Below are positions 1-38,276 of a stretch of 53,787 nucleotides of DNA, piece by piece. The stretch covers positions 1-53,787 of the forward strand of contig JAUWNU010000002.1 of assembly GCA_030612505.1 (NCBI GenBank), read 5' to 3'. Position numbers and translations under genes: made by a program. The notes beneath the pieces are model-generated. The model did not search any database. It worked only from the letters and a program-made list of their open reading frames with translations, and was not told the origin of the DNA. This DNA comes from Methanomassiliicoccales archaeon. Its GTDB lineage: Archaea > Thermoplasmatota > Thermoplasmata > SG8-5. Every line of letters starts with the position of its first letter. Position 1 is the stretch's first letter.

Positions 1-2
1 TA

Positions 3-128
3 AAACATCACAACCAGAACGGAAAATGGGAAAAATATTCTCCAGCCAGAGAACAAGGATTGACAAATCATAACTGGACAATGCGAGAATTATTGACATT
101 TCCTTATCACCAAATATCAACCAATTAG
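3..128 (+). CDS. 3' end of an ORF cut by the window edge; tail tentatively resembles a DDE transposase C-terminus
   Basis: Open frame from nt 3 to TAG at 126-128 reading ...SPAREQGLTNHNWTMRELLTFPYHQISTN*. I associate the PA..GLT.H.WT..ELL tail pattern with C-termini of IS transposases (from memory, unverified). It is absent from the ORF track because its start lies outside the window. It overlaps the 3' end of the convergent gene 117..956 by 12 nt. Confidence 0.3.
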   Translation, partial: KHHNQNGKWEKYSPAREQGLTNHNWTMRELLTFPYHQISTN

Positions 129-956
129 GGGGGCACTACCTGATTTTTCTAAAAATGCGTTTTGCAGTAGAAAACCAAAATTACCATTTTTATATTCATT
201 CTTTTTGGCATGTGTTACCAGTGCCGAATCGAAATTGCTCCCAAGCGGTTTTTCCATTATCGTTCTCAAATTCTTTTTTTGCATTGAGATAAATTCCATG
301 GCCGAGATAGAATATCTCTCAAAATTCTTTTCAATATAATCAACCAAATTTTGCTTTGCTATACCTGGATCAAATTCATCTTTATTGTATACCTGGACAA
401 ACAATCCCGGATGTTCTATGTGTCTAAATGTAGGTACTATAGCAATACTGGAGATCCTATCATAATTTTCATTGTTATCAAATGCCTCAGTAGCACTACC
501 TCCGACCTTAGAGAAAACAATAATTGGCCATATCATATTTTTATTTGGAATACAATGTTTAATGATATCGATTGCTGTAATACTGCCTCCTTTCAATTGA
601 TAATCTATAATTGGGAAATCTGATAATGAAATCATTTCTATAATCATATCTTTTTCAACTAATTCATCATTTTCATCTAGTGCCCCATTAAAGAAAAGTG
701 GTAATGGAGTAATTCCTTCTGCTTTAAATCTCCCTAACCATTTTCCAAATTCTATAAGGTCTGGGGAATCCTTTACTGAATCTTTTTTCTTTTTAATTTT
801 TTTCTTAGATTTTGGTTTTGCTGGGGGTTTTCCTGACTTAGTTTCAGCTTCAATAGGAGTAACTTCAGCGGGAATGTCCAATACGTCATAGCAATCGTCT
901 ATGATTACGGCATTTACAAGAATATCGTTTATTCTTTGTTCTAGATCCGTAGTCAT
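117..956 (-). CDS. Atypical receiver (REC)-domain protein with a Lys-rich insert and an unknown ~110-aa C-terminal domain
   Basis: Beta1-like AVIIDDCYD with an acidic pair. Putative phospho-acceptor segment FPIIDYQLKGGSITAIDIIKH followed by WPIIVFSKVG, which is the CheY-like order. A KPPAKPKSKKKIKKKKD insert follows beta1. Its ATG overlaps the stop of the upstream kinase gene (ATGA at 953-956). Confidence 0.65.
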   Translation of the reverse strand: MTTDLEQRINDILVNAVIIDDCYDVLDIPAEVTPIEAETKSGKPPAKPKSKKKIKKKKDSVKDSPDLIEFGKWLGRFKAEGITPLPLFFNGALDENDELVEKDMIIEMISLSDFPIIDYQLKGGSITAIDIIKHCIPNKNMIWPIIVFSKVGGSATEAFDNNENYDRISSIAIVPTFRHIEHPGLFVQVYNKDEFDPGIAKQNLVDYIEKNFERYSISAMEFISMQKKNLRTIMEKPLGSNFDSALVTHAKKNEYKNGNFGFLLQNAFLEKSGSAPLIG

Positions 957-3900
957 TCATTCATCACCAAATCCTCTTTGAAAACCGAAATTTTAAATTT
1001 TGGCCCCCCTAATCCTTGTGAATCTTTCCGCGTTTCAAGAGTTAAATCCCAGTCAATTGCCTTAAGAATTTCCTTTGATAGGTATAATCCTAATCCTCGG
1101 CCATTTTCTTTAGTTGAGAAAAATGGACTGAACAATAAATGTTCTGATTCCGCCCTAATTTCAGGGCCAGAATTTGATATAAACAAGTTAGAATTATCAT
1201 ATTCTATGCGAATTATTTTTTCTTTCGCTAATAGAACCCAATAAAACATATTGTCTAAGATATTACATATTACTGGAAAGAATCGACTTAATGATGTAAT
1301 CACATTCAAATCTTCAGGAACATCAATTATCACGGTAATTTTATTCCTTTTCATTCGAGGTTCAAACATCCTTATAATATCTTGTAGTGTATGATTAAGA
1401 TTTATGGGTTCACGATGACTATGCCTACTTTTATGAAGAGGTTCCAGAGCCATCAATCGAGTAGAAACAGCTCTAATTCCAGAATCTAGAACTTTCAACC
1501 AATGTTCACCATACTCGTCCATCTCATATTCATTCAATTCACGAATCGCATCTCTGATGATAATTATGTATTGTGAAAATTCATGAGTCATTATATCAGA
1601 GGTTAGGCCGATATTCGCCAATTCATATAATTCATCATTCCTTCTTGCTTGCTCCATATAAATAAGGCTGTTTTCATCATAAGTCTCTTTACTAAGATTA
1701 TCATCAATTGGTATTGAATATAACGATTTATTGAAGGCCATGTTAGTTTTATCTAAATGTTTTTCTACCTCTTTTTGTAAGTTCTGCAAATCTTTATTCA
1801 ATGATTCAACATGAGATGGGATTTCATTACTATCTATGCCCCTCTTCATAACTGTTTCTAATTCAGATATTCTACCTTTTAAAACTTCTATTTTCTCATC
1901 TAAATTATCATATTCCAATATTTTCAAAATATCCTCTTTGTTTTTATCTACATACTCATCGAAATTATTAATATGATTTTCTATAGTTTCATTATTTATT
2001 TCAAGTTTCTGGCTTGCTTTAAACAATAACTCATTTGCATCTTTGAGTCGTTGTTTTGATAACTTAATATTAGCTTCATTTGAAGTCAATCTTTTCTTTA
2101 GTTCAGAATCTAGTATCTTTAATAATTTGTTAATCTCTTTTAGAGTTTTTTTGTATATTTTTTCCATTTCAGTGTTATAATTTTCAACTTTATTTCTGAA
2201 TTTAATACCACCGTATTTAATGACCGAATCCGGAGGAATTAAAGGCTCTTTAGCAACTGTCACAATTTCTTCTTTCAGATTGTTAAGTTCTTTTTCCAGA
2301 GAATTTATCCCTATAATGTTATTTTCTTCAGAAATAGAGCGAGCTCTGTTTAGTATGCTGAAATATCCTAAATTTTCGAGCAATTCATCAGCATCAAACA
2401 CATCAATTATTTCTTCGTATTCCTTTTTCTTCTTTTTTAATTTTTCTCTTTCTTTTTTTTGTTTTTTCTCTAATGCCTCTTTTTGTTTTTTTATTCGGCT
2501 TCTTTCATCAGTACTCACTGTACGTAATTCAAAACCATCTTTCAAAAAGAGTCTTGCCATTTTCATGAGGAGATCTGTACAGGTTCCCTGGAGATAATTA
2601 TAATATTCATTTTCAATGAATCCTTCTCGACTGGTTTTTTCTTCTAATTTATAGTTCAAATCTCTTTGAAGAAATATTCTACCAAACGAGTTTCTGTGGC
2701 TAAAAATCCAAGTTCCTGCTTTTAAAGTCCGCCTTTTTTCAATGCCTAAAAAATCATTTTCAGGTTCACCATATGGTAAAATTCTAGAACTATCTATATA
2801 AACACGGATGCCTCCTTTCTCTAATCCCCTTCTTGAAATCAAACTTTGGATTTCATTCCATTCGTCTTTATTGAGATTTGTTTCGAATTCTCTACCCTCA
2901 ACATGACAAACTTCGATTTCAAAAGATCCACAATCTGAATACCTTTTCTGACCAAATTGATCCATTAATGGAAGTCCGTTTTTCAAAATTTTATTAACTG
3001 GCTCAATTAATTTATTGGGAACTCCTCTCATGAATAATTGGCCTTTGAATTTAGTGACACCATCATCATCCATTGCAATCGTGCCTTTGAATTTAATATC
3101 ATACATTTCCTCATAGTGTATTTCTTCTAAATCTTTTTCAATAAAGGGTTTTAAGTCATCTCCTTTACAATATAGTCTTGATTCGATATCTTGATTATTT
3201 AGAAGCCACATAAGTGTTTTTGAGAATCTAGACAAGGTTTGTTCATTGATAGGAAGAGTCAGATCCCAATTTGTTCTTAGAGAAGCAATATATAAAATTG
3301 TGCCAGTCTTATCCTTGCTCCATTCAATTTCTTTAATCAAATCTAATAATAGTTTGTAATTTGGTTTGAAATTATTAATCTCAATGAAAACGTTGTTAAA
3401 AAGATCAAATTGATCATCGAGAATATATTTATTCATTCTTTTAGCCTCTACAAACGGTACCCTATTTGCTTCCTGATAGTCCCTAAAATAATCTACAAGT
3501 TTATGGTCGGATTTATTTTTAGCACTAGTGAACCAACCATCTAATGCCAGATTGGATAGTTGAGCACCGACTAATTCTTCTACCAGATTATTAATGTTAG
3601 ATTTGTTAATAAATGGGACATGCTTATAAGGTATGGATACGTTTTCAAGTAAGAGATTTGGGTTTTGAAATAATCCCCAATTAATGTAGCTAATTACCCA
3701 ATGAGAATCTTTGGTTCTAGATATTATTAACAAATCTTCGCCTAAAGCATCAACTGCTAATCGACCTACACCTTTAGCACCTAACATTGGCCTACCTTTG
3801 GCAGTAGTTTTTCTGTTTTTTTTATTTGTAGTTCCAAGTACTAACCATTTGTCTAGGAAATCATCCTTTGACATTCCACTGCCGTGATCTGCCAAAACTA

Positions 3901-4024
3901 TGGCATCGTTCTCATTTTCTCCTGTTCCAAAATGCATTTCTAAATAGGGTGAATCAGCATCATGGGAGTTTTTCACCAGCTCGTTTATTGCAGTAACACC
4001 GTCTCTTATCTGCTGCCTGCCCAA
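953..4024 (-). CDS. Hybrid ATPase/histidine kinase: N-terminal GHKL (MORC/HSP90-like) ATPase, ~400-aa middle region, ~280-aa Lys/Glu coiled coil, H-box and C-terminal HATPase_c
   Basis: N-terminus: INELVKNSHDAD, ADHGSGMS, GAKGVGRLAV (GHKL N, G1 and G2 boxes). C-terminus: H-box MTHEFSQYIIIIRDAI (about nt 1571-1591), N-box ICNILDNMFYWV, SNSGPEI, FSPFFSTK and GRGLGLYLSK. The 3-kb ORF has no frame disruptions. Confidence 0.8.
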   Translation of the reverse strand: MGRQQIRDGVTAINELVKNSHDADSPYLEMHFGTGENENDAIVLADHGSGMSKDDFLDKWLVLGTTNKKNRKTTAKGRPMLGAKGVGRLAVDALGEDLLIISRTKDSHWVISYINWGLFQNPNLLLENVSIPYKHVPFINKSNINNLVEELVGAQLSNLALDGWFTSAKNKSDHKLVDYFRDYQEANRVPFVEAKRMNKYILDDQFDLFNNVFIEINNFKPNYKLLLDLIKEIEWSKDKTGTILYIASLRTNWDLTLPINEQTLSRFSKTLMWLLNNQDIESRLYCKGDDLKPFIEKDLEEIHYEEMYDIKFKGTIAMDDDGVTKFKGQLFMRGVPNKLIEPVNKILKNGLPLMDQFGQKRYSDCGSFEIEVCHVEGREFETNLNKDEWNEIQSLISRRGLEKGGIRVYIDSSRILPYGEPENDFLGIEKRRTLKAGTWIFSHRNSFGRIFLQRDLNYKLEEKTSREGFIENEYYNYLQGTCTDLLMKMARLFLKDGFELRTVSTDERSRIKKQKEALEKKQKKEREKLKKKKKEYEEIIDVFDADELLENLGYFSILNRARSISEENNIIGINSLEKELNNLKEEIVTVAKEPLIPPDSVIKYGGIKFRNKVENYNTEMEKIYKKTLKEINKLLKILDSELKKRLTSNEANIKLSKQRLKDANELLFKASQKLEINNETIENHINNFDEYVDKNKEDILKILEYDNLDEKIEVLKGRISELETVMKRGIDSNEIPSHVESLNKDLQNLQKEVEKHLDKTNMAFNKSLYSIPIDDNLSKETYDENSLIYMEQARRNDELYELANIGLTSDIMTHEFSQYIIIIRDAIRELNEYEMDEYGEHWLKVLDSGIRAVSTRLMALEPLHKSRHSHREPINLNHTLQDIIRMFEPRMKRNKITVIIDVPEDLNVITSLSRFFPVICNILDNMFYWVLLAKEKIIRIEYDNSNLFISNSGPEIRAESEHLLFSPFFSTKENGRGLGLYLSKEILKAIDWDLTLETRKDSQGLGGPKFKISVFKEDLVMNE

Positions 4025-4065
4025 CAGTTCAATAGTTCGGGCTTTTGATGAGAAGGAATGAAGTG

Positions 4066-5217
4066 CTATACAGATACCTCCACAGGTTTTTCTTCAGGTA
4101 TTATTACTTCATTAATTTGGGGCGAATATTCATCTAAAGCTTGTATTACAGTGTTAAAAACATCAACACCTAATCTTATTGGTACGGCATTACCTATCTG
4201 CCTGCCAGACGCCATCAAGCCGCCTTCAAAAATAAAATCATCGGGAAATGTTTGAAATCGAGCTGCGTGTCTAATTGTAATCCCATGATTTTTTGTGGGA
4301 TGAACAAACCGGCCTTTTGATGGATTTATGCAGCCAGTCGTAATTGTTGGACCCGGCTTTCTGGGATCAATCCGCCCATATACATCAAGATGTCCTCTAT
4401 AATTTTCATGACAGGGAAGAGTTCTATTTGATTGCAATCGGCTTCCGCCGTTTTTTGGTGTGCTTTTGAAAACCTCTATTATTCTTTCAGTATGGTTCAT
4501 ATGATTTAAGTTTGGGTCTTTTTTAGAAAGAGGTTTAAACACCACTTTGGCGTTAATCCATGCTGTTTTTTCATCCTTTTTCACCTCTTCTGATTTTGGG
4601 TTGTAATGAGTCGGCTGTGGTGGCCAGTCTAATTTTAATGGAAGGCTAGAAGATATGCCGATAATGAATACTCGCTCACGATTTTGGGGCACGCCATAAT
4701 CTTTTGCATTGAGGAGTGTAGGCCCATAAACACTGTATCCAGATTTTTTAGCCAGTTTTAGAAATTTGTTTAGATAATCAGCATGGCGAGGCCACAAAAG
4801 GCCAGACACGTTCTCTATAACGAAAACCTTTGGCTCTATAATTTTTACAAAATCAAAATATTTGATTATCAGAGTATTTCGAGGATCATCCACGCCTGCA
4901 CCTTTTATTCGGTGTGTAGAAAACCCCTGACATGGTGGGCCACCCATTAACACATCACATTCGCCAGGAAGCATGTCTGCGAGTTTCAGTAATTTATAAG
5001 GGTCAACTTCATTGATGTCATCTTCAATAAGTTCAGGTGGATTTTCCTGGCCATAAATAAAGTTTCTTCGATAAGTTTCGCAGGCATGTCTATCAAATTC
5101 AATGGCGGCCTTTACATGGATACCTACTTCTTTAGCAGCTAGGGTGAAGCCTCCTGCTCCTGCAAACAAATCGATTCCAGTGTAATAGCCATTCTTCACC
5201 TTCTTCCCTCCATTCAA
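4066..5217 (-). CDS. dcm: DNA (cytosine-5)-methyltransferase
   Basis: All canonical m5C-MTase motifs are present in order: DLFAGAGG (I), GGPPCQGFS (IV), ENV (VI), QNRERVF (VIII), RFQTFPDDF (IX) and GNAVP (X). It lies 41 nt upstream of the kinase gene on the same strand. Confidence 0.95.
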   Translation of the reverse strand: MNGGKKVKNGYYTGIDLFAGAGGFTLAAKEVGIHVKAAIEFDRHACETYRRNFIYGQENPPELIEDDINEVDPYKLLKLADMLPGECDVLMGGPPCQGFSTHRIKGAGVDDPRNTLIIKYFDFVKIIEPKVFVIENVSGLLWPRHADYLNKFLKLAKKSGYSVYGPTLLNAKDYGVPQNRERVFIIGISSSLPLKLDWPPQPTHYNPKSEEVKKDEKTAWINAKVVFKPLSKKDPNLNHMNHTERIIEVFKSTPKNGGSRLQSNRTLPCHENYRGHLDVYGRIDPRKPGPTITTGCINPSKGRFVHPTKNHGITIRHAARFQTFPDDFIFEGGLMASGRQIGNAVPIRLGVDVFNTVIQALDEYSPQINEVIIPEEKPVEVSV

Positions 5218-5652
5218 TCTGACATCTGATTATATATTATATTAATCTTATGATGGCCACATCTTTAAACTCCTTTATTATAATTTCCTTACGTTCACTA
5301 CACTATCGCTTCCACAGGCACGTTAGGGATAATAAATCTCAACCTGCCAGTCTTACAATTGCCCTATTTCCCTCTCTCGACAATTCCGAAATCACACAAC
5401 CTTTTTAGATTACTTCACAACCGAATTTTCCCCAATGGCTTTCACTGGCTTCGCAATCTGAGATCTCGATATTCTGGATGTCCTAGAAAGTGACATGAGC
5501 CTCTTTTCTCAAAAAGAAAGCTTGCTCTAAATAGAGTTAAATATCTGATTGAGAATATGAAAAATGGGAAAATTGCGATAAAGAAAATAAATGGTGAGAA
5601 TAATTGACAGATAACTATACCGAATATTACCAAAAAACAGGATTGATAACTA

Positions 5653-6930
5653 ATGAGTGAATTTGATAATTACATCGAATTGTTCAATAACTGGAAAATA
5701 ATTTCAGACACTAAAAAGAAGACATGCTGTAATTTTATCATTGAAACATCACAAGCGAGAGAGCTATCAATGGAAGAAATAGAATTGATTGCAAACGGTC
5801 TCGCCAAAAGTGGTTCTGCCTGGAAATGGCCAAACGATGTCCAACCAATAACAGATGTATGCTCTACTGGAGGGTCTGGATCAATGACAACGTTATTGTG
5901 CCCATATCTTATAGCAACTCAGAAAATTAAGATTCCACAGGTAAGTGTACTAGGGTCTATAGCGGGAGCTATTGACACATTAGGAATCATTCCGGACTAT
6001 TCCTATCAGTTGTCTCATAAGGCTATGTTGAAAGCACTTAGGACCGCTGGAATCGGGCATACATTAAATACTCCCGATATGGCCCCTGCGGATTTATTCC
6101 TTTTTAACCAACGGAAGGCACAAAATGCAGTGAATCTACCTGATTTAGTTATTTCAAGTTTATTAGCAAAAAAAATTAGTTCTGGACTTACAAAGGTTCT
6201 TTTCGATGTCCGAGTAGGTCCAGTTGGAAACTTTGGGACTACTATCGAGGAAGCCGAGCAGAATTGCAGAAAATTGATACAAGTCGGTAGAAATATTGGA
6301 ATTGATTGTACATGTGTTCTAACTAATCATGATACCGCGCCAATTCCTCTTTTTGGGAGATTGGAGAGTCTAAATGTATTATGGTCTGTAGCCAATGGAA
6401 TTGATTTAGATGCCTGGACCTTAAGCCATATTGAAACCAATATTGATATTGCAGCTATTGCATGCGAATCCATAAAAGGGGGTAGTATTAGAGGTTGGAC
6501 CGAGTCAATTCGAAAATCTATTCTAAACGGCGATGTTTTTGATTTAATAAGATATAATTTAAATAGTCAAGGAAGTAGCATAGAAAGTTTGGAAATGCTC
6601 ATAACTAAATATAATAAAACAAAAAAATATGCGATATATTCTCCTTCTGACGGTTATATTAATAGATTTGATTTTGTTAATCTCCGGAACATATTCCAAC
6701 AAGCTTATTTTGAATCCCCCATAATTAGTGGCTTCGATTCACCATTAGGAATAATCCTTAAAGTACGTGAAGGTGTTGAAGTTCATAAAGGTGATTTAAT
6801 AATGGAGTTAAGGGTCAATAATAAAGAACTTTTAAAACATACCGAAGAACTTAAAAAGGTTGTACTCATAGATAAAAAGGCAAAATCCCCCCCTCAAAAA
6901 AAGATTTTCAAGGTGATAAAAAATGGATGA
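5653..6930 (+). CDS. Divergent thymidine/AMP phosphorylase-family (glycosyltransferase family 3 + PYNP_C-like) protein
   Basis: It aligns by eye with the in-window AMP phosphorylase: CSTGGSGSMTTLL vs HSIGGAPGNKITLL; LLAKKISSGLTKVLFDVRVGPVG vs VMAKKKAVGADYFLLDIPTGPG; C-terminal GYINRFD...LKVREGVEVHKGDLIMEL vs GYVTFLD...LKKRGDHIEKDQPMFEI. It lacks the archaeal N-terminal extension. The SxR...GTxD segment is altered (VSVLGSIAGAIDTLG). Confidence 0.8.
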   Translation: MSEFDNYIELFNNWKIISDTKKKTCCNFIIETSQARELSMEEIELIANGLAKSGSAWKWPNDVQPITDVCSTGGSGSMTTLLCPYLIATQKIKIPQVSVLGSIAGAIDTLGIIPDYSYQLSHKAMLKALRTAGIGHTLNTPDMAPADLFLFNQRKAQNAVNLPDLVISSLLAKKISSGLTKVLFDVRVGPVGNFGTTIEEAEQNCRKLIQVGRNIGIDCTCVLTNHDTAPIPLFGRLESLNVLWSVANGIDLDAWTLSHIETNIDIAAIACESIKGGSIRGWTESIRKSILNGDVFDLIRYNLNSQGSSIESLEMLITKYNKTKKYAIYSPSDGYINRFDFVNLRNIFQQAYFESPIISGFDSPLGIILKVREGVEVHKGDLIMELRVNNKELLKHTEELKKVVLIDKKAKSPPQKKIFKVIKNG

Positions 6931-9900
6931 ACCTAATTATTCTTGCTTTCTGCACCCTCGCATTAGATCACAAGATCATCCAGATATTTGTCCAGAGTGC
7001 GGAAAATCATACACCGCTCCATTAGATGAGCCTCCTAAGTCGATAAAGGGAATGAATGTCATTAAATCTCTTGACAGGGGCTTCTATGGCGTGACATATC
7101 TCGTTAAGAATCCTATTACTCAAGGATTATTTACCATGAAAGTGATTCCAAAAAAAACTTATTCGAAAGAAGAAGGTTACAACAAAGATTTCAACCAAGA
7201 GATACAAAATCATAAAAAAGCTTCCGATAAAGAAATGACTGTTCCAAAACTCATTGATGCAGGAGAATGTGAGCTAGAAATTAGTGATTATACAATAAAT
7301 TGTTATTTTATGCAACTAGAATACATAGAAGGAGTCAGTCTTGAAGAATTCAAAAATTCGGGTGTGATTTCAGCCACTAGAATTTCTCAGGTCGCATATG
7401 ATTTATTTGAATTTCTATGGCAATTAGAAAAAGAGATGTTACATCACAACGATCTTCATAGTAGAAATATTGTAATCAAAACAGACTCTGTTGAATTTGG
7501 TAGAATAAATGCATTGGATAAAACTATTAGAACTTATGTAATTGATTTAGGTTCTGTCAGTGATAAGAATAGATCCGGTTGCGAGCATTATCGTGATATT
7601 ACCTGGATTGTACAACATGTCGGAGATATGATTTTCACATATTTGAAAAGAAATGATATTCCAGATAAAGAACTAAGGGTATTATCACGCCTTAATTCTT
7701 TAGTTCAACATTGTTTAGGAGAAGAGTATATAAGGGAAATTACACCAGAGGATTACTGTAATCAGATTAGAGATATCGTTAAACAAGGTGAAAATCCCTG
7801 GGCTCAACCTAAAGAATTAGTGACTCCAGGTGATCATTATAACGCTCAAACAATGCCCACGTATTATGCATCACACCTTTTTTGTGATCCTGAAAATAAA
7901 TGGTTTAACAATTTGATAAAACCTGGTCCGATACTTTTGACAGGGATGAGAGGATGCGGAAAAACTATATTGTTAAAATCGGTTCATTTTTTAGCCAGGG
8001 CGCAAAAATGTGAGGGAGAAGATACAGAAAAGTTCCTAAAGAGATTGGAAAATGAAAAGCATGTTGCATTTTTCGTTTCTTGTTCAGCTTTGTTAACGGA
8101 TCCAAAGAGCAAAAAATTGCACTTTCCTAATCATAAGCTCATTCTTGCTTTTTCATTGGATTTCATAAGGTGTGTTCGTTTTTGTGAATTAGAAAAAATC
8201 GGAGAAATTAATTATAAACAACTCGAACACCTTTGTAATACGCTGAAATTACTTATTCCATGGTTTGAGAAACCCTCTAATATTAACGATACTAATGCTA
8301 TTGAAAGGAGCATTGAAAAAGCAATTTTAAGAGCAAGGAGTATTAAGGATAATGAAGCAAGTGAACTCAATGTTCATAAAGATTTTGATAGGTTAGCTTC
8401 AATTATCCAAAGTTCTATAGATATCTGGAATAACAAACATATATTGTTTTTACTTGATGACGTTTCAGATCGTTACCTTCGTCAAGACAATGTAGATGAA
8501 GTTTTGAGTCAACTATGTCATCAAGCATCCAGATTTTCCTTTAAAATATCAACAGAAACACCTTCTCTAAGATTGAGGACTGGTGGTGGAGAATTTAGTC
8601 GTCTTGATAGGGACTATGAAGAATTTGATTTAGGAAATGAAGTTATGCAGGAATTGAAACATTCAAATTCAACATTTGTAGAGGATATGTTAAGAAAACG
8701 ATTAGATATCACCCCTCAATATAAGGGTTTATCTCCAAAATATATTTTAGATCAACAACCACTAATCGAAGTCGCTAGGAATTTAGTGACGAGATCTGGT
8801 AAACGAAGAGGAAGTTATTGGGGCATCAATGTCCTAGGAACCTTATCTACGGGTGATATTGGGGATTCCATTCTAATGTTTCATCGCATGCTTCAAAAGA
8901 TGACTCCAACAGATAATTCTGTCTCTAGAGAAGATCAAGATTCTGTTATATTCGATTTTTCTGAAAGAAAATTACGAAAACTTGCAATTCAAGACAAATG
9001 GCTTTATGACCATGCTATAGCGTTTGCCCAGGCGAGTCAATTGGAACTTAGAAAAAGTTATTCCCCTGAGCGGGGGAAACAACAAAGGATAAGACAATAT
9101 AACGAGGTATTTTTGAAGGTTGATCCAGAAGGGGCAGATGATATATTCGATAAGATTAATAGATTGGTGGAAATGGGTATATTTATTTATGCGGGAGGGA
9201 CACCTCGTTCTAAAGGACCAAAGCAAAAAGCCTCCTTATATCTCAAGCTAGCTTATCGAAAGATACTGGGAGTGACCAACCTCATGCCAATAAGTTTCAT
9301 GGATAGATTCGAGATATCTGGAGATAACCTTATCAGCTGGCTTAACAATCCAACGGCCAATAAACTTAGAAAGACAGTTGGTGCAAAACAAATTGAAATG
9401 GATAAAGTAACATTGAAAGTAATTGAGGAAACTGACTGGATAGAACAGGATGAAAAAATCATTATAGAACATAAACTAGTAATGGATAAATCAACTCAAT
9501 CTAGATTGTTATTATACAATAAACCCGAAGAAACTGCCTCTATGATCAAATGTAAATTACCTTTCACAATTGAGACAGAAACTCTTCGTTCTCTCAAGAA
9601 AACCGATATAAAAAATAAACACATAATTGGGGCCCTCGGTTTTGAAGATAGAAGCATAGGAACATGGAAGAATATATTGTCTATTGATAAACCAAGTGGG
9701 GTGACCTTCATTGGCTATAAAATAAAAGGATTTAGTGATGAAATATGTGACCTTCTTGAGAAGGAATCTATTCCCTTTGATATCGTTAATTATGACGATA
9801 TATTTTGTTTTAAAGAAAATGAGATAGATAAAGAAAAGATTAAGAATTTTGTAAAAGAACTTCCAACTAATGACATAATATTAGATGTGACTTCTCTGAC

Positions 9901-10579
9901 TAAGCCTTTGATTTTTCTTCTTACTTTTGAAATTCTTAGGCGAAATGGAAGGCTTAATGTAATTCACACTCTCGCGGATGAATATTTACCGAATTCTAAT
10001 GAGGTTTCTGAGGTCTTGAGTCTGTTAGAGGAAGAAGATGCACCCATATTTTTTAAAAAGGCAGACGAATTAATACCTGGCGAATATCCCGAAGAGAGGA
10101 TAACAATCTGGCAGAATAGAGACCCTTGCTCAAATGTCTATTTAATATGCTTCATTTCATTGAAATACTCTAGAGTTCAGAAACTCTTAGAAGAATTGCC
10201 CGTTGATTGTCTTGATATAATTTATCCACTGAGTTTAGATGGAAAAGATTCAGCAAAGAGCAAATTCGCAGAAGAAATAGCAAATACATTTGTTCATGAG
10301 ACGGGGAATATATGGGCTACAGGGTCTAACGATCATGTAGAAGCCTTTCAAAAATTGAAAGAGCTCTATACTAAATATGCGTTAGAAGCAGGAAATAATG
10401 TTGAAATTGGCCTTACAGGTGTAAAAATACACATGGTTGCTGCAGGGATGTTAGCGTCAATTGCAAACATTTCTGGGGTATATTACACACCAGCTAGTTT
10501 TGATCCCGAGAAGTATACCAAGGGCACAGGAAAGACTAATTTTACAACAATAGAAATAAATAAATATAATCCTTATTAA
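6923..10579 (+). CDS. 1218-aa multidomain protein: Zn ribbon, Ser/Thr protein-kinase-like domain, P-loop NTPase (STAND/ORC-like), wHTH-like region, C-terminal Rossmann-like domain
   Basis: CFLHP..CPECG ribbon. Kinase motifs GFYGVTY (Gly loop), FTMKV (Lys), HHNDLHSRN (catalytic loop) and IDLG (DFG-like). Walker A GMRGCGKT at 7943-7966 and Walker B ILFLLDD at 8441-8461. The C-terminal ~330 aa (from about 9620) alternates beta/alpha-like segments and has DVTSLTKP and LTGVKIH loops. There is an 8-nt overlap (ATGGATGA) with the upstream gene. Confidence 0.85.
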   Translation: MDEPNYSCFLHPRIRSQDHPDICPECGKSYTAPLDEPPKSIKGMNVIKSLDRGFYGVTYLVKNPITQGLFTMKVIPKKTYSKEEGYNKDFNQEIQNHKKASDKEMTVPKLIDAGECELEISDYTINCYFMQLEYIEGVSLEEFKNSGVISATRISQVAYDLFEFLWQLEKEMLHHNDLHSRNIVIKTDSVEFGRINALDKTIRTYVIDLGSVSDKNRSGCEHYRDITWIVQHVGDMIFTYLKRNDIPDKELRVLSRLNSLVQHCLGEEYIREITPEDYCNQIRDIVKQGENPWAQPKELVTPGDHYNAQTMPTYYASHLFCDPENKWFNNLIKPGPILLTGMRGCGKTILLKSVHFLARAQKCEGEDTEKFLKRLENEKHVAFFVSCSALLTDPKSKKLHFPNHKLILAFSLDFIRCVRFCELEKIGEINYKQLEHLCNTLKLLIPWFEKPSNINDTNAIERSIEKAILRARSIKDNEASELNVHKDFDRLASIIQSSIDIWNNKHILFLLDDVSDRYLRQDNVDEVLSQLCHQASRFSFKISTETPSLRLRTGGGEFSRLDRDYEEFDLGNEVMQELKHSNSTFVEDMLRKRLDITPQYKGLSPKYILDQQPLIEVARNLVTRSGKRRGSYWGINVLGTLSTGDIGDSILMFHRMLQKMTPTDNSVSREDQDSVIFDFSERKLRKLAIQDKWLYDHAIAFAQASQLELRKSYSPERGKQQRIRQYNEVFLKVDPEGADDIFDKINRLVEMGIFIYAGGTPRSKGPKQKASLYLKLAYRKILGVTNLMPISFMDRFEISGDNLISWLNNPTANKLRKTVGAKQIEMDKVTLKVIEETDWIEQDEKIIIEHKLVMDKSTQSRLLLYNKPEETASMIKCKLPFTIETETLRSLKKTDIKNKHIIGALGFEDRSIGTWKNILSIDKPSGVTFIGYKIKGFSDEICDLLEKESIPFDIVNYDDIFCFKENEIDKEKIKNFVKELPTNDIILDVTSLTKPLIFLLTFEILRRNGRLNVIHTLADEYLPNSNEVSEVLSLLEEEDAPIFFKKADELIPGEYPEERITIWQNRDPCSNVYLICFISLKYSRVQKLLEELPVDCLDIIYPLSLDGKDSAKSKFAEEIANTFVHETGNIWATGSNDHVEAFQKLKELYTKYALEAGNNVEIGLTGVKIHMVAAGMLASIANISGVYYTPASFDPEKYTKGTGKTNFTTIEINKYNPY

Positions 10580-10736
10580 TGTTACTTATGGGTTGCTGAA
10601 AATAAAGCATCAACCAAACTCCCTTGGCAAGTTGTTTTTCTCTGGGCCTGCGATTTGTTCAATTCTTAAACAAACAATTGTAATTATATAAAATAAATGA
10701 AAAGGGGTGGATGAAAGTGTTGTTAATTTAATGCTT

Positions 10737-11150
10737 TCAAGACTCCGACAACTCGATTATCAAATCGAAATCTTCTTTTTCAATTTCGAATAAGTATGCC
10801 TGCATTGACATTTTCATTGCTCGTTGCATATTATCGGAAAGACCATGGCATTCTTTCAATTCTCTGAGTTTAACTGAATTGTTTATTAACTTCACATCGT
10901 TGAGTTTAACTATCAATCGAGAGTCACCCATCTCCATCTTAGAAGCTACTGACGATTTTGCTACGAAAGATGATTGCCATTTTTTAGATGTCAATGAATA
11001 TGTCAAATAGTGCAATACTTTATCTCCTGGCCTAATATTTTTCAACATATTACGATATCTAAGGGTATTTGGGGCATGGAGACCTTTTTCACCTGATATT
11101 TTTGGCTCGATGGAGAAGTCTCCACTTGCAACTTCAATCCAATAGTTCAT
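10737..11150 (-). CDS. EVE/PUA-like domain protein (possible modified-base reader)
   Basis: Pattern MNYWIEV...RYRNMLKNIRPGDKVLHYLT...SVKLRELKE...LFEIEKEDFDLI resembles the EVE-domain consensus (xYWl...RN..a...m.pGD.vlfY...l..lk...l..it.eef..i). Recognised by eye only. Confidence 0.5.
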   Translation of the reverse strand: MNYWIEVASGDFSIEPKISGEKGLHAPNTLRYRNMLKNIRPGDKVLHYLTYSLTSKKWQSSFVAKSSVASKMEMGDSRLIVKLNDVKLINNSVKLRELKECHGLSDNMQRAMKMSMQAYLFEIEKEDFDLIIELSES

Positions 11151-11372
11151 GCTCTCTCTTCATGGTGTGCAATTATAATATCTTTTTGAGACTGAGTGAT
11201 AAAAGTTTTTTCCTGATTAATGTATCAACTCCTTTTTCCCTATAATTGCAGGCCTTCCCCCCCAACCCCCCGCTCAACCTACCTCCCCTAACGATTGAGG
11301 CATAATCGGAGGACTGGTGTTGAGGTTGAATTCCATATTTTACAACTATTGGTGTGTTCCCCCAATCTACCT

Positions 11373-11530
11373 GCCGATGGCGACCACCTCCCCGCGCTCA
11401 CGCACGGGGCATCCAAAGTTTGAAAGAAAAAATAAATAACTTGTCACCTCATCCAATTCTAAACAAATTGGATGGTACAACCCCGCCCTTACAGACGGGG
11501 CATGATTGGCTAGGCCAGTGTTAGGGTTGA
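11373..11530 (-). repeat. Structured intergenic repeat, copy A (composite: two GC-clamped hairpins plus central hairpin; minimal loops)
   Basis: The reverse complement reads ccaatcatg-CCCCGTCTGTaagGGCGGGG-ttgtac-CATCCAATTtgtttagAATTGGATG-aggtgaca-T-rich-CCCCGTGCgtgaGCGCGGGG-aggtggtcgccatcggc. The architecture matches copies C, E and F. Confidence 0.8.
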
Positions 11531-11690
11531 TGGGTGGTGGGTGAAAGTGTAACTATTTCAGGCCACATTCAGTAATTGATAATGATTCCAGAAATGCCCT
11601 CTAACATTGATTTGAACATTGACGATAATAGGTTGGCTGGCATGGTTGAGTTGGTGGCTAATCAGAAGCAATTCGGCCAATCCTAGCGGA

Positions 11691-11810
11691 CTAACAACTT
11701 ACATCTGAACTGCCGCAACTTGCGCAATCTTGAACAGCTTGTCCATGATGTTTTGTACCTTTCCATCTATTCCCACATTTATTACATGTGTATGTAGTAC
11801 TTCTTGGAAT
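11691..11810 (-). CDS. Possible 39-aa zinc-ribbon protein (FmdB/CxxC_CxxC-like) with a non-canonical ATT start
   Basis: The minus strand reads GAGGTGAaaaaATT CCA AGA..., giving (M/I)PRSTTYTCNKCGNRWKGTKHHGQAVQDCASCGSSDVSC*. It has two CxxC pairs and an MP..Y.Y.C-type start, with a GGTGA RBS 4 nt upstream. No ATG/GTG/TTG is available in this frame. Confidence 0.3.
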   Translation of the reverse strand: MPRSTTYTCNKCGNRWKGTKHHGQAVQDCASCGSSDVSC

Positions 11811-11987
11811 TTTTTCACCTCAAAGAACAATACTAATTTTTAATTTAAACATTTCTAGTAATTTTTACCATGCTAATAAACAATACGCTTTATGTCAAAT
11901 AATATGTGTAGCACCCTCTTTGCAACACTCTGGATTCATGCAACACTTCCAAGTCAAACACCCGAATACGCAAAAGAACCGCCTATT

Positions 11988-14900
11988 CTAGGACACCTCA
12001 AACCACACCGTATTCCAATTTGTACCAACAATGCCCACTTCAACTCTGACATAATACCAGCCAGTGGTTGAAATATATGAATAAACACTTTCAGTAGCCC
12101 CAACACTTTCGGAAGAGTCTATCTCTGTTTGACTAGGATTATAGAGGTATAAATCAGGGTCTCCTGCAGCATTTCCTGTCATGTTCGCCCAGAAATATTC
12201 TCCTGCAAACAGAATTATTTGATAATAATCTCTTGAATCAAGGAACGCAGTAATATCCTCAGACCAAGCTTCACCCGGGTTCACTGTTCTTGCTGAAGCG
12301 AAGCCACCACCTGTGTCTGATGTGGCATATGTTCTACTATATACTTCATTTGAATTCGCATATTGACCTCCAGTCTCATTTACTCGAACGATAAAATGAT
12401 ATTGTGTTTGTGGAGTAAGACCACTAATTGTTACGGCTGTGCTTGTTAGAACTGTTAGTTTTCCAATATATGTCGCAGGGCCAGGAGTGAATCCAGAACT
12501 TGTGGACAGGTATATATCGTATGAAGCAAAATCACTGTTTCCATTGTCATATTGAGACCAAGAAATATCAATTTTATCTCCCGCAGAGGTTGGATTATAT
12601 GGTCGATTTAACACGACTGGTGTGGGGTCATTATTTACTAGGATCCATGTATCATTACTTCCAGGCGCTAGTTCATAATTTGAATATGAGTCTATAGCTC
12701 TTGAATAAAACTCATAATACCCCTCTCCACCTGTGGATGCAGAGTTAAAACTCCAAGCCCAAGGTGCTGATGTATCATCTCCATATTTCTGCCATGCCGC
12801 AGAATCCTTACTATACCACAATTCAACGGCATCAATTACAGAAGCGTCGCTGGCAGTGGCCGTTACTGTAAAGGTGATTAAACTCGTTGTGCTGGAAAGA
12901 GAATCAACCGAAGAAAGAGGGTCTGTAAAATCACCAGTCGTAAATTCTACATACCTATCTCCTGCAAGGCTGTTTCCTGCAAGATCCTCAAAGCCAGCAC
13001 CATCTAAATCCGCATAGTAGTTTGTTAATTCATTAAGTGCATTATATGTGCCCCTAAGTTCTTGATTACCGTTCCATGCCCAAATAACCCCAGGTAAATT
13101 TGAGACGGGTGTTCCTTGCTCTAGCATAGGCTCACTAAAATCTATTCTATAATAATCTGCAAACAGTGGAAATCCAGTTGTTTCATCAACTGGGCTAGTA
13201 ATTGGAATCCATGGCAATCCTATATCTGCTATATATGGGCCAGATTCTATGTCTGCAAGAGTGGATGGGATAGGTTCATTTGGTGTTCCCATAGCCCTAG
13301 CATTCCAATAATATGTTCCAGAAATAGGTAATGGACTATCTGGTGTCCAAGGTTCGTCCCATGGATTTGGAGGGAAAGATGAATAAGTCTCTTCTCCCCA
13401 TTTTGTCCAGGAAGTTCCACCATCATCAGACCAGTAAAACCACACCTCGTTCGTGTTAAAATGAGTATATTCTATCTCGGGCAAAGGATCATTGGTCAAT
13501 GTTGTATTTGGGCCAAGTACTTCTGCATATGGCGATACGCTCACTACGTATGGGCCAGCTTCAATGAAACTGGCATCAGTTGGTACTGGTTCATGATTGA
13601 CGTATCCCATTGCTCTTGCGTTCCAATAGTATGTTCCTGAAGATGGTAAATCAGACGAAGGAGTCCATGGATTATCCCAACCGTTCCAGCCCCAGTCATC
13701 TCCCCAATAAGTCCAAGTTGTCCCTCCATTATTCGAATAATAGAATTCAATACTAACTGGCCCCTTACTATATTCATAAGAAAGTTCTGGTCTTGCATCT
13801 AATGTACCATTTGAAACAGGTCCAGTAACATTAGCAATTGGTGCTACACTTATGCGTACTGATATGAAATGTTCTAAAGAATATCCTTTGAAGTCATGGA
13901 CTCTTATGGTTATATTGTAATCCCCATTTCCTTTTAAACTAATATAATCTTGAACAAGCCACCACCACCATGTGTTCTCAGAATCCCAAATACCATTCGA
14001 TAAGATTGGCGCAGGAATTGGGATATCCCAACCAAGACTTAGGATGTCAAATATATTCGTTCCATCTTTTTCAATAGTAATCTCTGCCCATAATGCCATA
14101 TCTGGATTATCTTGACAATCTATTCGAATATTAAAATCGTCAATGTTCACTGTGGCATTTGGCACTGGTTCAAGTACAGAAATTATTGTAGGCGTATTTT
14201 GAATATCGTTAATTTCAAAGGCTAAGATGAAGCCAGGCGGTATCAAACCAGAATCTAGCACACCATCAAGGAAATCTGTTAATGGGTCAGTTACATTAGA
14301 CATTCCTGAAATTTCGTCGGTTAGCCCATTCATTGTTTCAGCAGACGAGAAATCTGATTGATTTTTAAGAAATCCATTAACATTATCAATACTTACAGCA
14401 AAGTCTATGTACATGCCTCTAACTTGTGTTACATTAAAAGAGTAATATGTTGGCCCTTGGCCTGTAGCAAGATAGAATATTGGTATCTGGTAGATGTCAG
14501 TAATACTATTGAATTGAAGCCCATCATATACACAGAAGTCAAGAGGGAAGGCTTGAATTGCAGTAGTTATCACATTAGTTAATGGTTCTCCTGGCGGAAC
14601 ATTTTCCGCTATTGTTTTCAGAGTAGTACCAAAGGTTATAGCATCCAAATTAACATATGCCCAGCCTTGAGAATTCAAATCAACATTACCGTCCTTGAGG
14701 TCTTTGATTGTCACATTCTGGATATCACCAGTAACCTCGGAATATTCATCGACTACCATAATTGGAATATGGGCAAGATCCGCTGAACAAGAGAAGTAAG
14801 TCGCAGGATCATACAAAACGCCTTTAAGGTTCAAATATCTGAATCCAGAAGCCATTCTATCATAGTCTGGAATAATAGCTATTGTGGCATAGTTCCAGGC

Positions 14901-20800: not shown

Positions 20801-20920
20801 AAAAAGAGGGTCTAAAAATTCAATTCTTACATCTGCCTCCCTGTAGCTGGATGACCTGTACTGCTTGCGGTTGTTTTTGTACCGTTCAACAAGTTTTGAA
20901 ATCTCTTCCGGTGCTGCCAT
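17858..20920 (-). CDS. Type IIG restriction-modification enzyme (fused PD-(D/E)xK nuclease + N6-adenine methyltransferase + target recognition domain)
   Basis: N-terminal TPDYSF...FFVEAKKP (D...ExK). MTase motif I ILDPACGSGSFLI and motif IV GNPPYIR. A long C-terminal specificity region completes 1020 aa. Confidence 0.9.
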   Translation of the reverse strand: MAAPEEISKLVERYKNNRKQYRSSSYREADVRIEFLDPLFKALDWDVDNTQGNAPQYRDVVTEESLEVEGSIKTPDYSFRLSGTTKFFVEAKKPSVDICSDKMPAFQLKRYAWSAKLPLSILTNFEDISVYDCRFRPVRTDDPTKGRILYISFDELEERWDELVAIFTKDAILKGSFDKYAQAKKRGTSEVDAEILKEIEGWREELAKNIAKNNEFTTEEVNFAVQRLIDRILFLRICEDRKTEPENQLYDIMMNKKDIYRHMIDVFQLADAKYNSGLFHFTHDKSRSTKPDRLMRKLIVDDKVLASILWDLYYPNSPYQFDVIPADILGQVYEQFLGKVIKLSASGKTAKIEEKPEVKKAGGVYYTPTYIVEYIVENTVVKLCEGKNLDELAKIKILDPACGSGSFLIVAYQKMLNKHLEWYMANSPKKHKDQVFEKRKDEWQLTLQEKKRILLNNIHGVDIDGQAVEVTKLNLLLKALEGESKESIANVKSWFKEPALPDLGSNIKCGNSLIDFDIIDHLQDMNDDERDDELNRINPFSWQEEFSDIMKAGGFDAVVGNPPYIRIQTMKEWAPVEVEHYKRVYKSASKGNYDIYVVFIEKALQLINKNGKMGYICPHKFFQAKYGQPIRELISEGKHLDEIVNFNDLQIFDGATTYTCLLFLTGKDNNKFNYIDVNDLLSWKLQKDAKKGSINHPSGADEWNFIVGPGSDLFERLNDIPIKLEDVTSKIFQGLITGADPVFIMKKESTGKYRSEATGSTYTLEKELIHPLCKGSVNLKRYHVSNITKSILFPYKLVENKAQLIPIKEMEKEFPNIWKYLNENRLKLESRERGKWKHDKWYAFGRTQNLSEMEQMKILTPSIASHGSFYFDETNFYYFVGSGGGGGGGYGITLNEKYKSLKYLYLTGLLNSNLFDWYIKLISSQFSGGYYAYNKQYIKNIPIRTINFDDKNDVARHDKMVKLVERMLKLHKDIKEASTPDAETRAQRQIDAADREIDGLVYELYNLTEDEIRIVEGEAT

Positions 20921-38238: not shown

Positions 38239-38276
38239 TTAATATCTTATTATAAACAATGAAATTGTGGTGTTTA

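What the first reader, a model, noticed from the sequence alone, without database searches (positions are those of the whole stretch)
117..5217. m5C methyltransferase + dual-GHKL histidine-kinase hybrid + atypical receiver protein in one operon
Three same-strand genes lie close together: a 41-nt gap, then a 4-nt ATGA overlap.
- The first is a complete Dcm-type methyltransferase with no recognisable cognate endonuclease or Vsr.
- The second is a 1023-aa protein with an N-terminal MORC/HSP90-like GHKL ATPase, a long Lys/Glu coiled coil, an H-box (MTHEFSQ) and a second GHKL module of histidine-kinase type (N, G1, F and G2 boxes).
- The third is a receiver-like protein whose REC fold is interrupted by a poly-Lys insert. 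It ends in an unassigned ~110-aa domain.

GHKL/MORC-type ATPases are known components of RM-like conflict systems, and kinase-plus-receiver defence (Detocs) is known. A fusion of both ATPase types, coupled to a methyltransferase and a REC-effector of unknown fold, is not something I recognise. Inference: this is a methylation-linked two-component abortive-infection or restriction-like module in which the REC C-terminal domain is the effector.
Basis: partly seen in the sequence, partly recalled or inferred. Interest (0 to 1): 0.8.

Follow-up and report, generated by a model that had tools for sequence, protein, structure and literature searches.

The report
Known methylase-kinase-receiver module, receiver truncated
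The three genes are a divergent, probably archaeal copy of a methylase-linked "two-component-like" module already described in 2021, and in this copy the receiver gene has lost its conserved C-terminal half, so it is an ordinary and probably disabled member rather than a new system.

Summary
The gene layout is real. On the minus strand there is a complete C5 cytosine methyltransferase (5217..4066), a 1023-aa protein (4024..953) and a receiver-like protein (956..117). The gap is 41 nt and the overlap is ATGA.

The 1023-aa protein has four parts:
- a MORC-like GHKL/S5 module;
- a coiled coil;
- an H-E-F H-box;
- a histidine-kinase catalytic domain.

The combination is not new. It is the HEF_HK (PF19191) / Response_reg_2 (PF19192) module linked to C5 methylases, described by Bellieny-Rabelo et al. 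2021 (PMC8011034). In 16 of 16 intact loci I surveyed, the kinase, a receiver-like gene and a Dcm gene lie together.

A relative, "Ambrosia", has a homologous kinase N-terminal module. A 2025 preprint reports that it defends against phage.

The new point concerns the receiver gene. In all 19 full-length relatives it is 549-651 aa and ends in a conserved domain with no Pfam or PDB sequence match. Here homology stops at residue ~272. Seven unrelated codons and a stop follow. Two assemblies end 29 and 140 nt past that point, which suggests a repeated element. Vsr or nuclease absence cannot be judged, because the contig ends 116 nt after the stop.

Verdict: new member of a known kind, probably defective. 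Interest is low.

The parts
4066..5217 (-). C5 cytosine DNA methyltransferase (Dcm type), 383 aa, complete
   Evidence: PF00145 E 8e-67 and TIGR00675 E 4e-52. PADLOC MTase_II E 4e-88. 64% identical to the Dcm of the homologous module in archaeon BMS3Abin16.
4025..4075 (-). In-frame stretch upstream of the kinase's TTG. It encodes ...IALHSFSSKARTIEL, which matches the family's conserved N-terminal arm (MGxFKTKARAVELLGRKQ). No ATG, GTG or TTG lies between the stop at 4096..4094 and 4024.
   Evidence: Read from the sequence and compared with alignment A3 and the BMS3Abin16 N-terminus. Initiation is either non-canonical or the N-terminal arm is lost. This is unresolved.
3665..4024 (-). Kinase residues 1-120: N-terminal MORC/MutL-type GHKL ATP-binding domain (E15, N19, D46-G-S-G, G82-A-K-G-V-G)
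   Evidence: PF13589 E 1e-17. These residues are invariant in 31 homologues. N19 aligns with AbrB N40, whose mutation to Ala abolishes Ambrosia defence.
2525..3664 (-). Kinase residues ~121-500: MORC-like middle (S5/transducer-like) region with the invariant motifs LPYGEPENDF and EEKTSREG
   Evidence: Much of the AF2 model for this region has block pLDDT 80-93, with weaker stretches (about residues 160-200 and 400-440, block pLDDT 50-69). Foldseek hit to MORC2-DNA 9cdh_B over 525 columns, E 1e-8. Homologous to AbrB residues 22-397, BLASTP E 4e-26.
1625..2524 (-). Kinase residues ~501-800: long Lys/Glu-rich helical (coiled-coil-like) connector
   Evidence: Almost continuous helices from 500 to 769 in the model at lower confidence; residues 770-783 are unstructured and below pLDDT 50. 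Poorly conserved in alignment A3. Weak LmuB-like (SMC coiled-coil) PADLOC hit, E 8e-6.
1427..1624 (-). Kinase residues ~801-866: DHp / H-box of HEF_HK type; phospho-acceptor candidate H814 in MTHEFSQ
   Evidence: PF19191 E 1.6e-4 (22.5 bits against a cut-off of 24.1). H814, E815 and Q818 are invariant in 31 homologues, nearly all of which carry PF19191. Foldseek matches to HK853 and CpxA DHp-CA.
953..1426 (-). Kinase residues ~867-1023: histidine-kinase catalytic (CA) GHKL domain. N box, F box and G2 box are present; the G1 box is N-S-G-P-E.
   Evidence: PF02518 E 9e-11. Block pLDDT 80-91 over about residues 870-960 and 67-83 in most later blocks, with dips at 971-976 and the extreme C-terminus. 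ThkA CA domain 3a0t TMt 0.72. The G1 variant is shared with the BMS3Abin16 homologue.
342..956 (-). Receiver-like protein residues 1-205: Response_reg_2-type REC domain (D20, D21, D118 in IIDYQL, S149, K192) with a variable Lys-rich loop after strand 1
   Evidence: PF19192 E 8e-4. 49% identical to P0122, which carries PF19192. Conserved columns in A4 and A6. The secondary-structure order in the P0122 model is (beta-alpha)5-like, with block pLDDT about 54-80 outside the low-confidence loop after strand 1.
141..341 (-). Receiver-like protein residues 206-272: start of the helical linker that in full-length relatives leads to the conserved C-terminal domain
   Evidence: tblastn of P0122 aligns residues 1-266 to 956..141 and nothing beyond. 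See also alignments A1 and A4.
1..140 (.). Unrelated DNA that ends the receiver gene (7 codons GSAPLIG, stop at 119..117). It is probably the edge of a repeated or mobile element. A new ORF (MSIILALSS...) starts at ~97 on the minus strand and runs off the contig.
   Evidence: No frame resembles the C-terminal parts of P0122, P0123 or P0124 (z < 1). An identical Logan contig ends at window 112, and this contig ends at 1. That is 29 and 140 nt past the break, close to k-1 for k=31 and k=141 (the k values are from my own knowledge). No copy was found elsewhere.

Best explanation
This is a divergent, probably archaeal member of the known HEF_HK / Response_reg_2 module, a two-component-like pair that travels with a C5 cytosine methyltransferase in restriction-modification and defence neighbourhoods.

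How the intact module most likely works (inferred, not shown):
1. The N-terminal MORC-like GHKL/S5 ATPase of the large protein acts as the sensor, probably by ATP-dependent clamping on DNA.
2. The signal passes through the long helical connector to the DHp/CA core, which phosphorylates H814.
3. The phosphate moves to the Asp of the adjacent receiver (D118 here).
4. That switches on the receiver's conserved C-terminal output domain (motifs LCIxPxCxxxRPxKV ... YxSKxGVEE). Its function is unknown; it may be an effector or a regulator.
5. The Dcm marks the host's own DNA, and a Vsr, where present, repairs the resulting T:G mismatches.

In this window the receiver gene is cut at codon ~272 by unrelated DNA, probably a repeated mobile element. 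The output domain is therefore missing. The copy is most likely a disabled remnant that keeps an intact methylase and kinase.
For: Family membership:
- Domain hits.
- 620 homologues of the large protein, nearly all listed ones with PF13589+PF19191+PF02518.
- 50%, 49% and 64% identity of the three proteins to the Dcm-kinase-receiver-Vsr locus of archaeon BMS3Abin16.
- Published description of the module (PMC8011034).

Synteny:
- 16 of 16 loci with a full-length kinase have a 549-651-aa receiver-like gene directly downstream and a Dcm next to the pair.
- Vsr is present in 6 of them and HNH in 2.

Fold:
- DHp+CA and MORC2 matches.

Defence role of a relative:
- AbrB's N-terminal 400 aa are homologous to this kinase: BLASTP E 4e-26, phmmer E 1e-28.

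Truncation:
- The four closest relatives are 573, 574, 605 and 330 aa.
- The C-terminal ~300 aa are found nowhere in the window.
- The downstream frames are unrelated.
- A second assembly is 100% identical and stops 29 nt past the break.
Against: - No experiment exists on this family's phosphotransfer or output.
- Both Pfam hits that define the family are below the gathering cut-offs in this copy.
- The mobile-element idea rests only on where two assemblies stop. No second copy of the 140 nt was found in the window, GTDB genomes, JGI metagenomes or plasmids.
- The two assemblies may come from the same reads.
- Ambrosia's receiver is only 209 aa with a separate HNH effector, so a short receiver can be functional.
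- The kinase lacks a canonical start for its conserved N-terminal arm, which I could not explain.
- The G1 box lacks the usual Asp.
Confidence: 0.7

Rival explanations
1. The 279-aa protein is a complete, functional short receiver, like Ambrosia's 209-aa AbrC. It would signal to a separate effector encoded just beyond the contig end, namely the ORF that starts at ~97 on the minus strand. On this reading the system is a natural split or module-swapped variant, not a broken one.
For: - All receiver catalytic residues are intact.
- AbrC is short and works with a separate HNH.
- A new ORF starts 19 nt after the stop.
- A second case exists where the receiver half is kept and the rest replaced. P0125 in L035 is identical to P0124 up to residue 236, then has an unrelated tail followed by an unrelated 336-aa ORF.
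Against: - All 19 full-length relatives, including the three closest, carry the C-terminal domain.
- Homology ends abruptly 7 codons before the stop, inside the helical linker rather than at a domain border.
- The pattern of assembly ends suggests a repeat.
- The downstream peptide is hydrophobic and matches nothing tested.
Confidence: 0.15
2. The kinase-receiver pair is a transcriptional switch, not a phospho-activated effector. It would turn on the methylase or restriction genes during infection, as the Ambrosia authors propose. The receiver's C-terminal part would then be a DNA-binding output.
For: - Ambrosia reporter genes are induced on infection, and the authors predict a winged helix in AbrC.
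- Bellieny-Rabelo et al. also speculate that the pair regulates R-M systems.
Against: - No HTH or other DNA-binding family hits any of the receiver-like proteins that were scanned against Pfam full-length: the window protein and the L002 and L004 proteins. The C-terminal ~150 aa of 15 relatives also hit nothing.
- Most loci have no separate nuclease to regulate. Only 2 of 16 have HNH, and there is no hit to any other nuclease seed.
- The C-terminal domain has invariant Cys, Pro, Cys, Arg and Gly positions, more like a catalytic or metal site.
- None of this is decisive.
Confidence: 0.25
3. The truncation is an assembly artefact. A chimeric join or collapsed repeat in a metagenome assembly produced it, and the real genome has an intact 570-600-aa receiver gene.
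For: - The contig ends 140 nt after the break.
- The sequence comes from metagenome-type assemblies.
- The break cannot be checked with reads here.
Against: - Two assemblies made with different methods agree base for base over 10,845 nt, including 29 nt past the break.
- A chimeric join would not normally be reproduced by a k=31 assembler.
Confidence: 0.1

Closest known systems
HEF_HK (PF19191) / Response_reg_2 (PF19192) two-component-like module linked to C5 methylases and paraMORC ATPases (Bellieny-Rabelo, Pretorius & Moleleki 2021, PMC8011034)
   Same: - Same three-gene core and same order: Dcm, then HATPase_c_3+HEF_HK+HATPase_c ('group 1'), then the receiver-like gene.
- Same H-E-F H-box.
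- Same receiver with loop insertions.
- The closest relative's locus is followed by Vsr.
   Different: - This copy and its nearest relative are archaeal or probably archaeal, whereas the paper reports bacteria.
- It is only ~30% identical to the bacterial kinases.
- Both Pfam hits fall just below cut-off.
- The G1 box is N-S-G-P-E.
- The receiver gene is truncated at ~272 of ~573 codons.
Ambrosia anti-phage system of Pseudomonas aeruginosa (bioRxiv 10.1101/2025.09.30.679545): AbrR (XRE), AbrA (N6A MTase), AbrB (HATPase), AbrC (REC), AbrD (HNH)
   Same: - A methylase, a dual-GHKL kinase-like protein and a receiver in one cluster.
- AbrB's first 400 aa are homologous to residues 1-471 here (E 4e-26), including the essential Asn (N40 in AbrB, N19 here).
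- The receiver Asp is essential.
   Different: - AbrB is 747 aa, so it lacks most of the ~300-aa connector.
- AbrC is a 209-aa receiver without the large C-terminal domain and is not significantly similar to Response_reg_2 (hhalign probability 0.3%).
- The methylase is N6-adenine type.
- It has a separate HNH and an XRE regulator, and neither is seen here.
Detocs (DtcA kinase, DtcB buffer receiver, DtcC receiver-effector)
   Same: The same idea: a cytoplasmic kinase phosphorylating a receiver fused to an output domain, used for defence.
   Different: - No PADLOC Detocs model hits any of the three proteins.
- Detocs has no methylase, no MORC-type sensor and a second 'buffer' receiver.
Prokaryotic MORC / paraMORC GHKL ATPases of restriction-modification systems (Iyer, Abhiman & Aravind 2008, PMC2292703)
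   Same: - An N-terminal GHKL plus an S5-like module.
- Association with cytosine methylases and Vsr.
- The fold matches MORC2.
   Different: paraMORC1-5 as described have no DHp/CA kinase core and no partner receiver.

Membership tests
HEF_HK / Response_reg_2 module (PMC8011034) | Large soluble protein with HATPase_c_3 + HEF_HK DHp (His-Glu-Phe) + HATPase_c | tested here: met
   PF13589 E 1e-17 and PF02518 E 9e-11. PF19191 E 1.6e-4 (22.5 against 24.1 bits). H814-E815-F present and invariant in 31 homologues that carry PF19191. Solubility was not tested.
HEF_HK / Response_reg_2 module (PMC8011034) | Adjacent downstream gene with a Response_reg_2 receiver domain and conserved Asp, Asp-Asp, Thr/Ser and Lys | tested here: met
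   PF19192 E 8e-4 (20 against 27 bits). 49% identity to PF19192-bearing P0122. D20/D21, D118, S149 and K192 conserved. 4-nt overlap with the kinase gene.
HEF_HK / Response_reg_2 module (PMC8011034) | Full-length receiver-like protein (549-651 aa in my survey) with the conserved C-terminal domain | tested here: not met
   The window protein is 279 aa and homology ends at residue ~272. The C-terminal part is absent from the whole window.
HEF_HK / Response_reg_2 module (PMC8011034) | Linkage to a C5 cytosine methyltransferase | tested here: met
   The Dcm lies 41 nt upstream on the same strand. The same linkage holds in 16 of 16 surveyed loci.
Ambrosia | Five-gene set: XRE regulator, N6-adenine methylase, AbrB, AbrC and HNH AbrD | tested here: not met
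   The methylase here is C5 type. No AbrA, AbrC or AbrD match was found in window 1..12000. The sequence downstream of the receiver is unseen.
Ambrosia | AbrB-type dual-GHKL protein | tested here: met
   BLASTP E 4e-26 over residues 1-471 against AbrB 22-397; phmmer E 1e-28. Only the first 400 aa of AbrB were available.
Ambrosia | Protection against phage | not testable with these tools
   Needs a plaque assay.
Detocs | DtcA, DtcB and DtcC proteins | tested here: not met
   No Detocs model among the PADLOC hits. The receiver-like protein has no PADLOC hit at all.
Classical type II restriction-modification | A cognate restriction endonuclease next to the methylase | tested here: inconclusive
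   No nuclease domain in the three proteins or the flanking genes. The contig ends 116 nt after the receiver stop. PADLOC 'REase_II' hits (E 5e-6) match only the GHKL region.
MORC / paraMORC GHKL ATPases | An N-terminal GHKL ATP-binding domain followed by an S5-like transducer | tested here: met
   Foldseek hit to MORC2-DNA 9cdh_B, 525 columns, E 1e-8, TMt 0.47. Conserved E15, N19, D46xGxG and GxxGxG. ATPase activity was not tested.
Class I histidine kinases | A DHp helix with the phospho-acceptor His, plus a CA domain with N, G1, F and G2 boxes | tested here: inconclusive
   The fold and the H, N, F and G2 boxes are met. The G1 box has Asn in place of the adenine-binding Asp, and Glu in place of the second Gly, in this subfamily. 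Autophosphorylation was not tested.

The most novel reading that the evidence does not exclude
The receiver-like proteins of this family may evolve by swapping whatever follows the receiver half. On this reading the window is a live variant: a stand-alone receiver that signals to a new, unseen effector gene just beyond the contig end.

A parallel case exists in L035. There the same receiver half as P0124 is followed by an unrelated tail and an unrelated 336-aa ORF.

If true, this would be a natural example of effector exchange at a fixed junction in a methylation-linked, MORC-sensed two-component defence module in Archaea.
Probability: 0.12. Interest if true: 0.45.

Novelty: new member of a known kind. 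Interest (0 to 1): 0.22.

Why it matters
As a discovery it matters little. The architecture was described in 2021, has its own Pfam families, and has an experimentally supported relative.

Three modest points remain:
1. This copy and the BMS3Abin16 locus extend a module reported from bacteria into (probable) Archaea.
2. The receiver's conserved C-terminal domain is present in every intact relative but matches no Pfam family and no PDB sequence. It is the real open question for the family, although it is not in this window.
3. The case is a warning for sequence-only reading. A gene at a contig edge looked like a complete 'receiver + small effector' protein, but it is the front half of a much longer gene.

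Tried and rejected
- Word-indexed search with the 279-aa protein found only itself. The full HMMER scan then gave the four relatives.
- A profile search with six receiver-like proteins returned only two proteins.
- The AF2 model of the full-length relative P0122 had only a 5-sequence alignment and was poor: pLDDT 52, with the C-terminal domain below 50. Its Foldseek search gave no hit below E 1e-3, so I draw nothing from it.
- A profile of the C-terminal domain from 15 relatives gave no credible hit against PDB sequences (best E 0.065; RecR E 0.48). It also hit no Pfam family and no PADLOC model.
- I considered that the ORF downstream of the stop is the frameshifted continuation of the receiver gene, because of a vague 'ILVLWLEN' versus 'ILISEEN' resemblance at the right distance. 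Alignment scores of all three frames are no better than shuffles (z < 1), so I rejected it.
- I looked for other copies of the last 140 nt, to test the mobile-element idea. None were found in the window, in GTDB genomes or JGI metagenomes with an exact 26-mer, or in plasmids with blastn.
- Promoter and terminator scans were no better than shuffles, and the host is probably archaeal anyway.
- No Rfam family and no tRNA was found in the window.
- The WASA Vibrio paper's 'paraMORC3' is a Shedu variant and is not this system.

Full report
**1. The observation**

Three ORFs lie head to tail on the minus strand:
- 5217..4066, 383 aa;
- 4024..953, 1023 aa counted from a TTG;
- 956..117, 279 aa.

The first protein is a complete C5 cytosine methyltransferase (PF00145 E 8e-67, TIGR00675 E 4e-52).

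The second has HATPase_c_3 at residues 11-116, a HEF_HK H-box region at 805-866 and HATPase_c at 916-1005. I predicted its structure from a 31-sequence alignment (mean pLDDT 71, with the two ATPase regions mostly well modelled and the connector much weaker). Foldseek results were as follows:
- The C-terminal part matches the DHp+CA cores of HK853, CpxA and ZraS (E 1e-11 to 1e-9).
- The N-terminal ~500 residues match human MORC2 bound to DNA (9cdh_B, 525 columns, E 1e-8).

The third protein is receiver-like. Its PF19192 hit is weak (E 8e-4). However, it is 49% identical to a protein that carries PF19192. The acidic pair, the phospho-acceptor Asp (D118 in IIDYQL), S149 and K192 are all conserved. 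The Lys-rich insert sits in a loop that varies across the whole family.

**2. It is a known module**

PF19191 (HEF_HK) and PF19192 (Response_reg_2) were defined by Bellieny-Rabelo et al. 2021 (PMC8011034). That paper reports:
- 91.6% linkage of the two genes over 644 regions;
- HATPase_c_3+HEF_HK+HATPase_c as the main architecture (174 of 222);
- a dominant C5-methylase neighbour, frequent Vsr and some HNH;
- derivation from the paraMORC ATPases of Iyer et al. 2008 (PMC2292703).

My own searches agree. The large protein has at least 620 homologues, and almost all listed ones have the same three Pfam domains. I surveyed one genome per species plus two further loci. All 16 loci with an intact kinase have a 549-651-aa receiver-like gene directly downstream and a Dcm beside the pair, in four different arrangements. 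Vsr is present in 6 and HNH in 2.

The closest relative is the Dcm-kinase-receiver-Vsr locus of archaeon BMS3Abin16. Its three proteins are 64%, 50% and 49% identical to those here.

The rest of the window carries a Rad3/XPD-like helicase, a TrmB-type regulator and an AMP-phosphorylase-like protein. This also suggests an archaeon, but that is an inference.

The module sits in a low-GC stretch (31-35% against 40-48% elsewhere). Other defence-type genes lie nearby.

**3. An experimentally tested relative**

A 2025 preprint (10.1101/2025.09.30.679545) describes 'Ambrosia' in P. aeruginosa. It consists of an XRE regulator, an N6-adenine methylase, a 747-aa HATPase_c_3+HATPase_c protein (AbrB), a 209-aa receiver (AbrC) and an HNH nuclease. 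[quoted passage not shown] The genes are induced on infection.

The first 400 residues of AbrB are homologous to residues 1-471 of the window's kinase (BLASTP E 4e-26). AbrB N40 aligns with N19 here. AbrC is not significantly similar to the Response_reg_2 proteins.

Proteins of AbrB size occur in other genomes. In Lysinibacillus one sits with an AbrD-like HNH. They also occur on eight IMG/VR contigs.

The window's family is therefore a sister of Ambrosia. It has a longer connector and a much larger receiver protein instead of a short receiver plus HNH.

**4. What is different here: the receiver gene is cut short**

Every full-length relative is 549-651 aa. Each ends in a ~150-aa domain with invariant Gly, Cys, Pro, Cys and Arg in the motif LCIxPxCxxxRPxKV, and a terminal YxSKxGVEE motif.

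The window protein aligns only to residues 1-266/272. It then has seven unrelated residues and a stop. The missing part is nowhere in the 53.8-kb contig. None of the three frames of the last 140 nt resembles it.

The window is the whole contig. A second assembly (Logan, SRR12623519) is identical over 10,845 nt and ends at window 112. The two contigs therefore stop 29 and 140 nt beyond the homology break. That is what de Bruijn assemblers with k=31 and k=141 do when they run into a repeat. The k values are from my own knowledge of Logan and MEGAHIT defaults, so this step is inference. I could not find another copy of the 140 nt.

The most economical reading is an insertion of a multicopy element into the receiver gene.

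Vsr or a nuclease cannot be declared absent. Homologous loci place them exactly where the contig ends.

**5. Other oddities of this copy**

- The family's nearly invariant N-terminal arm (MGxFKTKARAVELLGRKQ) is encoded in frame upstream of the TTG as ...FSSKARTIEL. No ATG, GTG or TTG lies between the preceding stop and position 4024. An ATA overlaps the Dcm stop codon. Initiation is either non-canonical or the arm is lost.
- The G1 box of the kinase domain is N-S-G-P-E. The BMS3Abin16 protein has the same variant, so this is a subfamily trait and not decay.

**6. Mechanism**

Shown:
- the domain composition;
- conservation of the catalytic residues of both ATPase modules, the His and the receiver Asp;
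- strict gene linkage;
- the defence function and residue requirements of a homologous but differently built system.

Inferred:
- The MORC-like module senses DNA.
- It drives His autophosphorylation through the connector.
- The phosphate is passed to the receiver Asp.
- That activates the conserved C-terminal output.
- The Dcm protects the host's own DNA.

The domain has no Pfam, PDB-sequence or PADLOC match, and my structure model of it was too poor to use.

In this window the output is missing, so the module is probably inactive as a whole. The methylase may persist as an orphan.

**7. Verdict**

I rate this a new, divergent, probably archaeal and probably defective member of a known kind. 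Interest is low.

Noticed in passing
window 5653..6930 (+) and 6923..10579 (+): These two genes are divergent from the Dcm operon and overlap each other by 8 nt. The first is a 425-aa thymidine/pyrimidine-nucleoside-phosphorylase-like protein (TIGR02644 E 9e-34, far below cut-off). The second is a 1218-aa protein with a protein-kinase domain, an ORC/CDC6-like AAA domain and a CARF-like C-terminus. It matches PADLOC model PDLC01925 'CARF6--CARF_STK_AAA' end to end (E 1.6e-238). The same pair sits next to the module in the second assembly. A nucleoside-phosphorylase partner for a CARF-kinase protein may be worth its own look.
   Followed up: partly
window 4025..4096 (-): The kinase's conserved N-terminal arm is encoded in frame upstream of the first canonical start codon. 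An ATA overlaps the Dcm stop. Either a start codon was lost or initiation is non-canonical.
   Followed up: partly
window ~1162..1176 (-), kinase residues 950-956: The G1 box of the histidine-kinase ATP-binding domain reads N-S-G-P-E instead of D-x-G-x-G. The BMS3Abin16 homologue shares this, but the 30 bacterial homologues aligned do not.
   Followed up: partly
L035 1182..3243 (SDBS01064019) versus L011 / P0124: This is a second locus where the receiver half is retained but the rest is replaced. P0125 (330 aa) equals P0124 up to residue 236 and then diverges. An unrelated 336-aa ORF with no Pfam or PADLOC hit follows.
   Followed up: partly
L027 6821..13343 (Eubacterium plexicaudatum ASF492): The whole Dcm-kinase-receiver-Vsr module is present but broken into about a dozen short ORFs. 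It is either a decayed copy or a low-quality assembly.
   Followed up: no
window 17858..20920 (-): A 1020-aa type IIG restriction-modification enzyme (Eco57I E 1e-49, MmeI_Mtase, TaqI_C, HSDR_N-like N-terminus). It supports the view that the left ~21 kb of the window is a defence island.
   Followed up: no
window 10737..11150 (-): A 137-aa EVE-domain protein (PF01878 E 2e-8), a reader of modified bases, lies between the CARF-kinase gene and a 1443-aa fn3/Big-domain surface protein.
   Followed up: no
window 38259..40147 (+) and 37303..38238 (+): A radical-SAM protein with its linked TIGR03915 partner, a putative DNA modification/repair pair (TIGR03916 E 2e-100, 336.7 bits, just under the 343.5-bit cut-off). 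A Fic-like 'mobile mystery protein B' relative lies just upstream.
   Followed up: no
window 1..11000 versus the rest: GC content is 31-37% over the first ~11 kb and 38-49% over most of the remainder. This is consistent with horizontally acquired DNA.
   Followed up: no
L031 7956..11562 (Lysinibacillus sp. RS11); L036-L043 (IMG/VR): A 769-aa AbrB-like protein (E 2e-45 to Ambrosia AbrB) has an AbrD-like HNH downstream, which suggests an Ambrosia-like locus in a Firmicute. AbrB-related proteins (537-822 aa) also occur on eight viral or proviral contigs.
   Followed up: partly
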